Assembly (NCBI RefSeq): GCF_044324875.1 | Contig: NZ_CP172185.1 | Source: Escherichia coli | GTDB lineage: Bacteria; Pseudomonadota; Gammaproteobacteria; Enterobacterales; Enterobacteriaceae | DNA length: 64,000 nucleotides | Reading direction: 5' to 3' (one strand) | Part shown: one piece after another, positions 20,042 through 23,508 of the stretch | How positions within the stretch are numbered: position 1 is the first letter of the stretch | How the letters are laid out: each line of letters starts with the position of its first letter | The notes under the pieces: generated by a model | Database searches by the model: none | Told to the model about the DNA's origin: nothing | The model's input: the letters and a program-made list of their open reading frames with translations, nothing else | Made by a program: the position numbers and the translations under genes

Positions 20042-21091
20042 TCAGTCTGTTAGTGTGCGATTATCGATAACAAAACGATATTTCACATCTCCTCGCAGCA
20101 TTCGCTCATAGGCTTCATTAATTTGATCGGCCCGAATCATCTCTATATCAGCCACGATGCCATGTTCGGCGCAAAAATCGAGCATCTCCTGTGTTTCTGG
20201 AATGCCGCCAATCATAGAGCCGGCTATCGCGCGGCGTTTCATGATCAGGTTGAAAACTTCCGGCGATTTATGCGGTGTCGCAGGCGCACCAACCAGCGTC
20301 ATGGTGCCATCGCGCTTCAGCAAGGTGGTAAAATCGTCGAGATTATGTGGCGCAGCTACTGTATTCAAAATGAAATCGAAACTCTTCAGATGAGCCGCCA
20401 TCTCATCGGCATTGCGTGAGTTAACAACTTCATCGGCCCCCAGGGCTTTTGCCGCTTCGCGTTTTGCCTCAGAAGTGGTAAATGCCACCACATGTGCCCC
20501 CATCGCGTGGGCCAGCTTAATCCCCATATGTCCCAGACCGCCGATGCCAACCACGCCCACTTTTTTACCCGGCCCGGCCTGCCAGTGACGTAGCGGCGAG
20601 TATGTGGTGATCCCTGCACACAATAAAGGAGCCACCGCCGCCAGCTGCTCTTGCGGGTGACGAATACGCAGAACATATCGCTCATGAACGACGATCTGTT
20701 GTGAGTAGCCGCCCAGCGTATGGCCCGGTTCGTCCGGCGTCGGCGAGTTATAGGTGCCGGTCATGTGATCACAGTAGTTTTCCAGCCCGTCTTCACACTC
20801 TTCGCAATGTTTACAACTGTCGACAATACAGCCGACACCGACCAGATCGCCCGTCGCATGTTTTTCTACCTGATCACCAACGGCTACCACACGCCCCACA
20901 ATTTCATGACCCGGCACGCAGGGGTAAACCGTCCCCGCCCACTCGGAACGGACCTGGTGGATATCGGAATGGCAGACGCCACAGTAAGCGATTTCAATTT
21001 TGACATCATGCGGTCCCGGTTCACGCCTGGTAATATCCATCGGTTCCAGCGGTTGCGTCGCGGAATAAGCACCAATAGCCTTGATATTCAT
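20042..21091 (-). CDS. yahK: NADPH-dependent aldehyde reductase (zinc alcohol dehydrogenase family), 349 aa (start MNIKAIGAYS)
   Basis: GHEIVG and CGVCHSD zinc-ADH motifs; recognised as YahK. Confidence 0.9.
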   Translation of the reverse strand: MNIKAIGAYSATQPLEPMDITRREPGPHDVKIEIAYCGVCHSDIHQVRSEWAGTVYPCVPGHEIVGRVVAVGDQVEKHATGDLVGVGCIVDSCKHCEECEDGLENYCDHMTGTYNSPTPDEPGHTLGGYSQQIVVHERYVLRIRHPQEQLAAVAPLLCAGITTYSPLRHWQAGPGKKVGVVGIGGLGHMGIKLAHAMGAHVVAFTTSEAKREAAKALGADEVVNSRNADEMAAHLKSFDFILNTVAAPHNLDDFTTLLKRDGTMTLVGAPATPHKSPEVFNLIMKRRAIAGSMIGGIPETQEMLDFCAEHGIVADIEMIRADQINEAYERMLRGDVKYRFVIDNRTLTD

Positions 21092-21362
21092 TGCATTCAC
21101 TCCTGTTCGAAGAGGTATCTGGATGATGTGAGGAACGTCTTTGCAGCAAAACTCGCTCATTCAATATAGCCAATGAATGGTTGCCCGTGATGGGCTCTGA
21201 GACGTTGATACCGGAGAGTTTAATGACCAATAGTGGTGTCGTTTTTCGTGGCAGATCACACTTTCTGGCACCAGCGATATCCCTTTTCCGCCTTAAAACC
21301 GGGGCGGTATCGTGACTGGCGAATTAGACTGCCGTGAAATTCAATTATTACGCACACGCCGT

Positions 21363-22010
21363 TTACCCCGCAAAAGAAACACGCAATAACTTTAACTGCC
21401 CGTTAATCATGCCAAATTCCAGTATAGTTGTGCCATCACAAACAGCCGGTGGAATTTGTTCATTAGCCTGCGAACCAATATTCAGCGTAATGCCATCGTC
21501 AGAAATATTCCCCGACATCGCCAGTTCACATATTCCCGTGACGTAGTGGCGCTCCCCTTTCTCTTCGTAATAGAAACGTCCATCATTGAGGGGATAATAT
21601 TTTCTTTTTTGCTCCGCTGGCGTCAGCGAATGACTGAGATAATCATCAATCCATTGGGTACCCGGATGTATCGTGAATTTTGTGACATTATGCAGACGCC
21701 GCATAATGGTTTCTGAATGGCGATCAAATAGTGCTTCTGTGAAGGGTTCAGATTCAGGCAACTCAATCTCAGCGAGAAAGCCGAAATAGGTATCGTAGGG
21801 GAATTTTAAGAAGGTTTTTAGTTTCGTGGCATTCTTTGCACTCAGCGCTTGCTGAAACTTTTGCAATTGCGTTAAGGCATCTTTTTTCTGCTCCGGCGTG
21901 ACCAGGGGCTGTATGCGCACCGCCTCGCATTCGTGTTGTGAATTTCCAGCAGGGCAAGTTGCCAGGACGGCCTGACTCAGAAACAACAGCGATAACCAAA
22001 GAAATTTCAC
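21363..22010 (-). CDS. hypothetical secreted protein, 215 aa, with N-terminal signal peptide
   Basis: ORF with signal peptide MKFLWLSLLFLSQAVLA and GGA-rich RBS region; not recognised as a named K-12 protein. Confidence 0.5.
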   Translation of the reverse strand: MKFLWLSLLFLSQAVLATCPAGNSQHECEAVRIQPLVTPEQKKDALTQLQKFQQALSAKNATKLKTFLKFPYDTYFGFLAEIELPESEPFTEALFDRHSETIMRRLHNVTKFTIHPGTQWIDDYLSHSLTPAEQKRKYYPLNDGRFYYEEKGERHYVTGICELAMSGNISDDGITLNIGSQANEQIPPAVCDGTTILEFGMINGQLKLLRVSFAG

Positions 22011-22129
22011 GGCGTCTATCCATCCCTGGATAAAAAAGATAATCCGCAGTGTACGTCATGGGCAAAACGCAGAGGATATCGGGTTTTAAAATCGGAATAG
22101 TGCCTGCCCGGATATCCTCGCTGATAACG

Positions 22130-23508
22130 TTACACCACACTCCCCCACACCAGTTGTCCTTTATGGAACGTTGCCGTTCTCGGCGAGATACGCGCCACCG
22201 CCTCGGCGGAACAGGAGGCGTCCACCAGCACAAAACTGGCGTCATCCTGCGCTTTGGGCCACACGCGCTCGCCTTTTTCATTCAGCGGCAATACATCGCC
22301 AGTGGCTAAAAACAGCGAACGGGACAAATTCTGTTCGTTAGGGCGAATATAGAGCTGCGCGTACAGATTGGCTTTTTCCAGCATGTCGCCCAGGCCATAA
22401 GGTGACCAGTGGTCAATAACGCTGTCAGTTCCGGTCATGACTTTTACGCCTTTGTCGTGCAACTGTTTGAGCGGCATATGCAGCGTGCCAATCGGCACCG
22501 TCGAGGCGATAGAAATTTGCTGCGCCGCCATCCGGTGCGCCAGTTCATCTACCTGTTGTTCGTTGAGCGTTGCCAACGCAAAGGCGTGACTGATGGTCAG
22601 CTTGCCCTTCAGCTGTGGCGTTTTCTCTACCGTTTCAACCATATAATTGATGGCTGCCACACCTGCCGGAGTGGTTTCGTGCAGGTGAATATCGACGCCT
22701 TTGTCGTAGTCCAGCGCAATCTGAAACATGGTGTCGAGGGATTTTTCCATCGCGCCATCAACACTGGTTGGGTCCAGCCCGCCGACGTAATGCGCGCCCG
22801 CCTGCATCGCTTCACGCATTAAGGGTTCTGATTTCGACAGCAGCAAACCGTGCTGCGGGAAGGCGACGATTTCACACTCGAAGCCCGCCTGACGTCGCGC
22901 CAGCACCGCCTGCAAATTTTGCAGATTTTTCAGGCCGGAAACCGGTTCGATATTGCAGTGGCTGCGGGCAATGGTGGTGCCTTTCGACTGCAATAAATCG
23001 ATCAGTTTTTCCGCTCGTTCCTGAGTGTACGGTTGCAGCTCCGGCAGCATTTTCTGCTCGAGTTTGATCATGTCCTGGATGGTGGTCCTGCCGGGCGATT
23101 GAGCGAGCGCCACGGCCCGCCGTAAAAGGTTTTGTCGAGATGAATATGCATGTCGCGGGTGGTGGGCAGCATCAGCTTACCGCCAGCGTCATAGTGCGGC
23201 AGCGTGGCGTCCGGATGCTGCTTGTTCTCGCGCAGGGCAACAATTTTGCCGTTCTGAATCTCTACGGTCTGGTGCGCCGTGCGGGTCTGTACCGCCACAC
23301 CGTTTTCGTAGTCAAAACCGGTTTCCAGCAGCACGTTGTCGAGATAGTAGTGCGGGTCAGTGATTTTCATGGTGTTATTCGCGTCGCAGTTTAGGGTGCC
23401 AGAGACTGCCGCATGGGCGAGCGGCACAGAGGTACCAAACAGCGCGGCGGCGGTGACCATCTTACAGCTCTGGCTCAGAAACTCACGGCGGCTATTGTTT
23501 TTTTTCAT
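22130..23508 (-). pseudogene. yahJ: Tat-signal amidohydrolase/deaminase split by a frameshift into 146-aa and 327-aa ORFs overlapping at 23068-23113
   Basis: N-fragment has SRREFL twin-arginine motif and HxH metal site; C-fragment continues the amidohydrolase fold in another frame; combined length about 460 aa. Confidence 0.75.

What the first reader, a model, noticed from the sequence alone, without database searches (positions are those of the whole stretch)
21363..22010. 215-aa secreted ORF between yahK and yahJ that I do not recognise from the K-12 gene set
The ORF has a clear signal peptide (MKFLWLSLLFLSQAVLA) and occupies a spacer of about 1 kb, which to my memory is shorter and gene-free in K-12. 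It may be a strain-specific insertion encoding a periplasmic protein of unknown function.
Basis: partly seen in the sequence, partly recalled or inferred. Interest (0 to 1): 0.45.

Follow-up and report, generated by a model that had tools for sequence, protein, structure and literature searches.

The report
Rare secreted NTF2-like gene beside yahJ
The ORF is a real but rare E. coli accessory gene, present in about 1% of complete genomes and absent from K-12. It encodes a small exported protein of unknown function with an NTF2-like fold, so it is a tidy annotation gap rather than a surprising new system.

Summary
The 215-codon ORF at 21363-22010 (minus strand, GTG start) is real. RefSeq already annotates it as hypothetical protein WP_000670937.1, and UniProt as D3GTB5 "Exported protein" of E. 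coli 042. It lies in a 960-bp segment (21175-22134) found in only 59 of 5426 complete E. coli genomes. K-12 has an unrelated 300-bp stretch there, inside a 376-bp spacer with no intact gene.

The protein has a Sec-type signal peptide, a short Cys-x8-Cys stub and a ~180-residue domain with no Pfam, NCBIfam, PHROG, PADLOC or PDB sequence match. An exhaustive search of 1.84 billion representatives found only 19 relatives. A confident AlphaFold model (pLDDT 90) has an NTF2/SnoaL-like fold.

The closest relatives are two-domain Citrobacter, Yersinia and Klebsiella proteins: signal peptide, DUF4431 (modelled here as an OB fold), then this domain. The E. coli protein is that architecture without the OB domain.

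Diverged copies (92-93% nucleotide identity) follow yahJ in two other genomic backgrounds. dN/dS is 0.13-0.17, so the short form is maintained by selection. No neighbouring gene is conserved across the family, so function stays unknown; the most likely role is a periplasmic binding module. "Strain-specific insertion" is only partly right: it is a lineage-specific replacement allele linked to yahJ. Interest is low to moderate.

The parts
21363..22010 (-). Complete CDS: 215 codons plus stop, GTG start. It equals RefSeq WP_000670937.1 and UniProt D3GTB5 'Exported protein'.
   Evidence: The GTG start is kept in two diverged lineages. dN/dS is 0.13-0.17.
21960..22010 (-). Signal peptide, residues 1-17 (MKFLWLSLLFLSQAVLA). 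It is Sec/SPase-I type, with predicted cleavage after VLA.
   Evidence: Read from the sequence; mean hydropathy of residues 3-17 is 2.0. Residues 1-34 align with the N-terminus of the Citrobacter two-domain protein (15/34 identical, pairwise E 7e-7). Every full-length family member examined starts with a comparable hydrophobic leader.
21909..21959 (-). Residues 18-34 (TCPAGNSQHECEAVRIQ): a short Cys19-x8-Cys28 stub. It stands where relatives carry the ~95-residue DUF4431 (OB-fold) core.
   Evidence: Two collinear BLASTP segments against P0035, 1-34 with 1-34 and 33-215 with 129-317. Alignment A1. DUF4431 is found in 4 of 17 relatives but not in this protein. DUF4431 is modelled as an OB fold.
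21366..21908 (-). Residues 35-215: a ~180-residue NTF2/SnoaL-like domain of an unnamed family. It includes the conserved pair Cys161/Cys191 and the motif EQKRKYYP.
22011..22129 (-). yahJ-ORF spacer. It holds a hairpin just after the yahJ stop (arms 22072-22083 / 22108-22119) followed by UGCGUUUUG. It also holds a weak promoter-like pair, TTGCCC (22065-22060) and TATCTT (22041-22036) with an 18-nt gap, and a Shine-Dalgarno-like GGGAUGGA (22026-22019).
   Evidence: Hairpin: (-19 kcal/mol, z -1.65, so modest). The promoter-like hexamers and Shine-Dalgarno are my reading. They fall below the threshold of the scan, which reported nothing here. 98 bp of this spacer are 96-97% identical between lineages whose ORFs have dS 0.2-0.26.
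21175..22134 (.). Lineage-specific 960-bp segment that replaces the unrelated 300 bp of K-12.
   Evidence: present in 59 of 5426 genomes at >= 99% identity, one chromosomal copy each. There is no diverged copy elsewhere in E. coli.
22130..23508 (-). Flanking gene yahJ (amidohydrolase). In this window it is split into two ORFs by a 1-bp deletion near 23086. The gene under study follows its 3' end in all three backgrounds found.
   Evidence: (GGTGGT-CC in the window against GGTGGTGCC in Ecol_316).
20042..21091 (-). Flanking gene yahK (NADPH-dependent aldehyde reductase). Identity to K-12 falls to 85% over 21000-21099, which spans its start, and to 63% over 21100-21174 just upstream.

Best explanation
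The ORF is a genuine accessory gene maintained by selection. Its product is exported by the Sec pathway. After removal of the 17-residue signal peptide it is a ~198-residue periplasmic protein. That protein consists of a short disulfide-capable stub (Cys19-x8-Cys28) and one NTF2/SnoaL-like alpha+beta cone stabilised by a second conserved cysteine pair (Cys161/Cys191).

It descends from a two-domain secreted protein of Enterobacterales: signal peptide, then the DUF4431 OB-fold, then this NTF2-like domain. An in-frame loss removed the OB domain. The short form sits directly after yahJ in three different genomic backgrounds. It therefore most likely entered a sublineage of E. coli, the one that includes strain 042, by recombination of a yahJ-linked segment. 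It replaced whatever lay between yahJ and yahK.

Inferred mechanism, not shown: the cone-shaped NTF2-like pocket acts as a non-catalytic binding module. The ligand would be a small molecule or an envelope component such as a peptidoglycan or lipid fragment. Free-standing versions of the same domain in other phyla show that it can work without the OB domain.

The existence, export signal, fold, ancestry and selection are shown here. The binding role is inference.
For: **A real gene**
- The same CDS is annotated in RefSeq.
- dN/dS is 0.17, 0.13 and 0.14 among three lineages (Fisher p <= 2e-8). No substitution touches the family's near-invariant residues or the four cysteines.
- The GTG start is conserved, and 98 bp of upstream spacer are 96-97% identical between lineages.

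**Export**
- The leader can be read. Every full-length relative examined also carries a hydrophobic N-terminal leader.

**Fold**
- The AlphaFold model has pLDDT 90.4 and pTM 0.84.

**Ancestry**
- phmmer finds C-terminal matches in proteins of 307-659 aa.
- BLASTP against Citrobacter P0035 gives 1-34 with 1-34 and 33-215 with 129-317.
- DUF4431 is present in relatives but absent here, and it is modelled as an OB fold.

**The domain works alone**
- Free-standing proteins of 199-227 aa exist, in Sebaldella and in unassigned metagenome contigs. Foldseek also returns a 210-aa Cloacibacterium lipoprotein at 20% identity.

**Linkage to yahJ**
- L031 has yahI-yahJ-ORF-yahK. L034 and L035 have the yahJ 3' end, the ORF, then actP.
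- The ORF is 92-93% identical between backgrounds, while the flanking genes are only 84-88% identical.
Against: - No experiment or transcript data were available, and no paper mentions the protein or DUF4431.
- No gene neighbour is conserved across the family, so context gives no functional clue.
- The start is GTG with only a moderate Shine-Dalgarno, and the promoter scan found nothing upstream.
- dN/dS of about 0.15 shows weaker constraint than on yahI, yahJ or yahK (0.01-0.04).
- The direction of transfer and the donor are not established.
Confidence: 0.6

Rival explanations
1. Hitch-hiking relic. The gene lost its OB domain and with it its function. It persists only because it was carried along recently with a recombined yahJ segment.
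For: - About 95 residues are missing compared with the two-domain relatives.
- Only about 1% of E. coli genomes carry the gene.
- It has a GTG start and no predicted promoter.
- Within E. coli the only variant compared differs by 3 non-synonymous and 2 synonymous changes.
- Similarity to the actP-adjacent copy stops exactly at the stop codon, as expected for passenger DNA.
Against: - The ORF is intact and the same length in all three diverged lineages, with dN/dS 0.13-0.17 (p <= 2e-8).
- All family-conserved residues and all four cysteines are retained.
- Every listed row of the 59 E. coli matches spans exactly 960 bp, so no indels are apparent.
- The domain occurs naturally as a free-standing protein elsewhere.
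Confidence: 0.13
2. Periplasmic immunity or inhibitor protein. It would neutralise an incoming hydrolase or toxin, for example a type VI or contact-dependent effector, a lysozyme or a protease, and is kept as an orphan.
For: - It is a small exported protein that sits alone in variable inter-operon sites.
- Sebaldella carries tandem small paralogues.
Against: - No toxin or effector gene lies next to any family member examined.
- There is no match in PADLOC or in any Pfam family, which includes the Imm families.
- The potempin resemblance concerns the domain that E. coli has lost.
Confidence: 0.12
3. Functional partner of YahJ. The protein would bind the substrate or product of the exported amidohydrolase encoded just upstream, or modulate that enzyme.
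For: - The short form follows the yahJ stop codon in all three backgrounds.
- The spacer between the two genes is unusually conserved.
- YahJ begins MKKNNSRREFLSQ..., a twin-arginine export motif (the Tat interpretation is from my own knowledge). Both products would therefore be periplasmic.
Against: - More than 5000 E. coli genomes keep yahJ without this gene.
- The two-domain relatives are never next to a yahJ-like gene.
- A hairpin followed by a U-rich tract separates the two genes.
- yahJ is itself frameshifted in this window.
Confidence: 0.08
4. NTF2-fold enzyme, such as a SnoaL-type cyclase, a ketosteroid isomerase or an epoxide hydrolase, acting on a periplasmic small molecule.
For: Many of the top structural matches are enzymes of this fold.
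Against: - The family's near-invariant residues are Lys, Gln, Tyr, Asn and hydrophobic residues. There is no conserved Asp/His or Asp-Arg-Asp set.
- Sequence identity to the enzymes is 4-11%.
- No biosynthetic or catabolic gene cluster surrounds any member.
Confidence: 0.05
5. Outer-membrane lipoprotein, anchored through Cys19.
For: A Cys lies two residues after the predicted cleavage site. There is a weak match to the lipoprotein model TIGR04454 (E 0.038).
Against: - The residue before the Cys is Thr, where the lipobox requires Gly, Ala or Ser. It is Trp or Tyr in the close relatives.
- The TIGR04454 score is 14.5 bits against a cut-off of 35.
- In the relatives this Cys is the invariant first residue of the DUF4431 domain.
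Confidence: 0.02

Closest known systems
Two-domain 'DUF4431 domain-containing proteins' of Enterobacterales, for example Citrobacter freundii P0035 (317 aa). Similar proteins occur in C. amalonaticus, C. braakii, Yersinia, Klebsiella aerogenes, Hafnia, Siccibacter, Lelliottia and Salmonella Albany.
   Same: - The signal peptides are homologous.
- The C-terminal ~185 residues are homologous: 41% identity, E 3e-45.
- Both have the same conserved cysteine pair and the KRKYYP motif.
- Both are monocistronic and sit in variable chromosomal sites.
   Different: - The E. coli protein lacks the ~95-residue DUF4431 OB-fold core and does not match PF14485.
- The relatives lie mostly beside actP-yjcH-acs, not beside yahJ.
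- None of these proteins is characterised.
NTF2-like / SnoaL-like superfamily. Top matches are 3h3h (BTH_II0226), 2rcd, 3f7s and ketosteroid-isomerase-fold proteins.
   Different: - There is no sequence-level match to any Pfam family of the clan.
- The domain is about 60 residues larger than typical members.
- It is exported and carries a conserved cysteine pair.
- No known catalytic residues are conserved.
Periplasmic NTF2-like domains of the peptidoglycan L,D-carboxypeptidases Pgp2 (6xj7), Csd6 (4xzz) and Bd1075 (7o21).
   Different: No L,D-transpeptidase-fold catalytic domain is attached or adjacent here. The similarity is structural only and weak.
Free-standing secreted proteins of 199-227 aa, from Sebaldella (Fusobacteriota) and from unassigned metagenome contigs.
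   Same: They share the single-domain architecture of signal peptide plus this domain, at 24-30% identity and E 1e-13 to 1e-4.
   Different: Some lack the cysteine pair (P0033, P0034, P0043). They arose independently of the OB-domain loss seen in the E. coli protein, whose leader matches the two-domain enterobacterial proteins.

Membership tests
NTF2-like (SnoaL-like) fold superfamily | An alpha+beta cone: N-terminal helices packed against a curved antiparallel beta-sheet. | tested here: met
NTF2-like (SnoaL-like) fold superfamily | A sequence match to a curated family of the clan (SnoaL, DUF4440, NTF2 and others). | tested here: not met
   There is no Pfam match even at E <= 10. NCBIfam gives only a sub-threshold lipoprotein hit. 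A PDB sequence or profile search finds nothing below E 0.7.
NTF2-fold enzymes (ketosteroid isomerase, SnoaL cyclase, limonene epoxide hydrolase) | Conserved catalytic acid/base residues inside the cone. | tested here: inconclusive
   The near-invariant residues of the family are K, Q, F, Q, A, P, L, Y, Y, N, F, L and L. No conserved Asp or His is among them. Model coordinates could not be inspected, so pocket geometry was not checked.
DUF4431 (PF14485) | A match to the PF14485 profile (core with the G-P-P motif; modelled here as an OB fold). | tested here: not met
   The E. coli protein does not match. Relatives do: 4 of 17 in A1, and most of the set. About 95 residues are missing.
Unnamed family: the C-terminal domain of enterobacterial DUF4431 proteins, together with free-standing homologues | Significant full-domain homology, including the conserved motifs QFQxFQQA and KRKYYP and the Cys pair. 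| tested here: met
   phmmer gives E 3.8e-36 to 8e-4 for 18 representatives, with residues ~36-215 aligned end to end. All near-invariant positions are kept.
Sec-exported (SPase I) proteins | A tripartite signal peptide with small residues at positions -3 and -1. | tested here: met
   The leader reads MK, then FLWLSLLFLSQAV, then V-L-A before the cleavage site and T after it. Mean hydropathy is 2.0. This was read by eye; no dedicated predictor and no experiment was available.
Bacterial lipoproteins (SPase II) | A lipobox, L-[AS]-[GA]-C. | tested here: not met
   The sequence is L-A-T-C, and relatives have W or Y before the Cys. TIGR04454 scores 14.5 bits against a cut-off of 35.
Toxin-immunity or anti-phage defence systems | An adjacent toxin or effector gene, or a match to a known immunity or defence profile. 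| tested here: not met
   PADLOC gives no hit. PHROGs gives only E 0.04. No toxin-like gene was apparent among the Pfam-annotated neighbours in the contexts examined.
E. coli K-12 gene set | The same or a homologous gene is present in K-12. | tested here: not met
   The K-12 (BW25113) spacer is unrelated. No diverged copy exists anywhere in 5426 E. coli genomes.

The most novel reading that the evidence does not exclude
The protein would be the E. coli representative of an unrecognised periplasmic NTF2-like domain family that has no Pfam model and only about 19 sequence clusters among 1.84 billion. In this reading, the family has a specific envelope-related or YahJ-related binding function. 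The OB-less short form would have spread between enterobacterial genera as a selected unit together with the 3' end of the yah cluster.
Probability: 0.12. Interest if true: 0.45.

Novelty: new member of a known kind. Interest (0 to 1): 0.2.

Why it matters
The practical value is mainly in annotation.

- **A hypothetical protein gets a description.** The gene is carried by EAEC 042 and about 1% of complete E. coli genomes. It can now be described as an exported NTF2-like single-domain protein derived from the DUF4431 two-domain family. DUF4431 itself can be described as a periplasmic OB fold.
- **A variable site is documented.** The yahJ-yahK junction carries at least three alternative alleles in E. 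coli.
- **A domain loss is shown to persist.** This is a clean example of an in-frame domain loss that selection has kept.

The work does not open a long-standing question or reveal a new kind of system.

Tried and rejected
**Profile and sequence searches with the E. coli protein found nothing.**
- Pfam, NCBIfam, PHROGs, PADLOC, and PDB by sequence and by profile.
- NCBIfam on ten relatives and their neighbours also found nothing.

**The first homology searches were uninformative.**
- The word-indexed protein search returned only the protein's own cluster. The exhaustive search was needed to see relatives.
- The first attempt at search for related loci with the 16-sequence alignment failed because no block was conserved enough. 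A four-sequence alignment worked.

**Mobile-element origin is rejected.**
- There are no plasmid or phage homologues.
- There are no flanking repeats of note. One 11-bp perfect inverted repeat brackets the ORF. By my estimate about 0.3 such repeats would occur by chance in 1.5 kb, so I treat it as chance.

**Other ideas rejected.**
- An RNA element in the spacers: Rfam found nothing meaningful.
- The K-12 pseudogene remnant being a piece of this gene: its peptide shows no resemblance on inspection.
- A lipoprotein reading (see membership test).

**Searches that led nowhere.**
- Guilt by association failed: neighbours differ in Citrobacter, K. aerogenes, Yersinia, Hafnia, Lelliottia and Sebaldella.
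- Literature searches for DUF4431, WP_000670937, D3GTB5 and A0A376VMI6 returned no papers.

Full report

Yes. One search lists an ORF at 21363-22010 on the minus strand: 215 codons, GTG start, translation beginning MKFLWLSLLFLSQAVLATCPAG.

RefSeq annotates the identical 648-bp CDS as 'hypothetical protein' WP_000670937.1. It lies between yahK and yahJ in strain Ecol_316, in EAEC 042 and in GF4-3. Foldseek identified it as UniProt D3GTB5, 'Exported protein' of E. coli 042.

The window's gene order is yahL, yahK (20042-21091), the ORF, yahJ (22130-23508), yahI, yahG, all on the minus strand. The yahK-yahJ spacer is 1038 bp here. In K-12 BW25113 it is 376 bp. The only annotation there is a 75-bp pseudogene fragment whose peptide shows no resemblance to this protein on inspection.

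**2. Distribution and boundaries**

The 960-bp segment 21175-22134 occurs in 59 of 5426 complete E. coli genomes. It is always chromosomal, single-copy, in the same place and at least 99% identical. A sensitive blastn search found no diverged copy elsewhere in the species.

Against K-12, homology resumes near the yahJ stop codon, at window position 22135. On the other side, identity is already down to 85% over 21000-21099 and 63% over 21100-21174. That covers the region upstream of yahK and apparently its first codons.

K-12 has 300 unrelated bp in this place. Parts of the K-12 spacer match sequence in and beside the ASCH + ABC-transporter island that strain 55989 carries after yahJ. The junction therefore carries at least three alternative alleles, and the window's allele is a replacement rather than a simple insertion.

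The ORF's G+C is 45.7%. That is lower than yahK (53.6%) and yahI (56.8%), though yahL is lower still at 38.8%. There are no plasmid or phage homologues and no Rfam element. The only flanking repeat is an 11-bp inverted repeat that I estimate to be compatible with chance.

**3. What the protein is**

No Pfam, NCBIfam, PHROG, PADLOC or PDB sequence match exists. The word-indexed search of 5.8 billion clusters returned only the protein's own cluster. It has 79 members, and those that carry a source name are all E. coli.

The exhaustive phmmer search of 1.84 billion representatives found 19 proteins.
- Residues ~36-215 align end to end with the C-termini of longer secreted proteins of 307-659 aa.
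- They also align with free-standing secreted proteins of 201-227 aa.
- Four of the longer proteins carry DUF4431 at the N-terminus. One carries YARHG and one DUF4459.

The domain alignment shows near-invariant Lys, Gln, Phe, Gln, Ala, Pro, Leu, Tyr, Tyr, Asn, Phe, Leu and Leu. It also shows a conserved Cys pair (Cys161/Cys191 in precursor numbering) and the motif EQKRKYYP.

Foldseek against AFDB50 recovered the same enterobacterial DUF4431 proteins: Citrobacter, Hafnia, Siccibacter and Salmonella Albany, plus an uncharacterised Affinibrenneria protein. It also recovered small proteins from Sebaldella and Cloacibacterium.

**4. Ancestry: a two-domain protein that lost its OB domain**

BLASTP against the Citrobacter freundii protein P0035 (317 aa) gives two collinear segments. 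Residues 1-34 match 1-34, which is the signal peptide plus 'CP...'. Residues 33-215 match 129-317 at 41% identity, E 3e-45. About 95 residues, the DUF4431 core, are missing.

The two cysteines that bracket the first half of DUF4431 survive in E. coli as Cys19-x8-Cys28. The residue before Cys19 is Thr, and it is Trp or Tyr in relatives. This rules out a lipobox.

**5. Is the short form maintained?**

Two diverged versions of the same 215-codon short form exist in public assemblies.
- **L031** has yahI-yahJ-ORF, then a 475-bp insert, then yahK. Its yahK-yahN side is only about 87.5% identical to any E. coli, so it is a non-coli, Escherichia-like organism.
- **L034 and L035** have the 3' end of yahJ, the ORF and, 34 bp further on, a convergent actP. 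That actP is only about 84.5% identical to E. coli actP and 84-87% identical to Citrobacter actP.

A position beside actP and convergent with it is also where the two-domain gene sits in Citrobacter, K. aerogenes, Phytobacter and Kosakonia.

The three ORFs are 92-95% identical in nucleotides. dN/dS is 0.17, 0.13 and 0.14, with Fisher p <= 2e-8. The GTG start is conserved. None of the 16 amino-acid substitutions per comparison falls on a family-conserved residue or a cysteine.

The 98 bp upstream are 96-97% identical, although synonymous divergence in the ORF is 0.2-0.26. This suggests constrained expression signals. Within E. coli the only 1%-diverged copy, GF4-3, is intact.

Synonymous divergence between the window and L031 is about 0.2-0.26 for yahI, yahJ and the ORF, but 0.72 for yahK. 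The yahI-yahJ-ORF block therefore has a shared history distinct from that of yahK.

The simplest reading, which is inference, has two steps. First, the OB-less gene arose at the actP-side locus of some enterobacterium that also has the yah cluster there. Second, it entered Escherichia attached to a recombining yahJ segment. Ancestral presence in Escherichia with loss in most E. coli is not excluded. The scan of species-representative genomes found the family only in Lelliottia, Citrobacter, Phytobacter and Kosakonia, and in no Escherichia representative.

**6. How it probably works**

Shown here: export signal, fold, disulfide-capable cysteines, selection and the domain-loss ancestry.

Inferred: the mature ~198-residue protein is a soluble periplasmic NTF2-like cone that binds something rather than catalysing a reaction. 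The reasons are as follows.
- The family conserves Lys, Gln, Tyr and Asn but no Asp/His catalytic set.
- It is never embedded in a metabolic cluster.
- The nearest periplasmic structural analogues are accessory binding domains.

Context gives no ligand. I put the binding-module reading at roughly one in three. The identity, fold and ancestry statements I put near 0.9.

The rival readings are listed separately with their evidence: relic, orphan immunity or inhibitor protein, YahJ partner, enzyme and lipoprotein.

**7. Comparison with the known, and verdict**

The gene is already in the databases as a hypothetical or exported protein. Its fold belongs to a very large known superfamily. Its closest relatives are uncharacterised DUF4431 proteins.

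What is new is modest: the fold assignments for both domains, the domain-loss relationship, evidence of purifying selection, the rarity of the family, and the allelic structure of the yahJ-yahK junction. No paper in the searchable library mentions the protein or DUF4431.

The finding is a correct observation with a partly correct interpretation. It is a new member of a known kind, and its interest is low to moderate.

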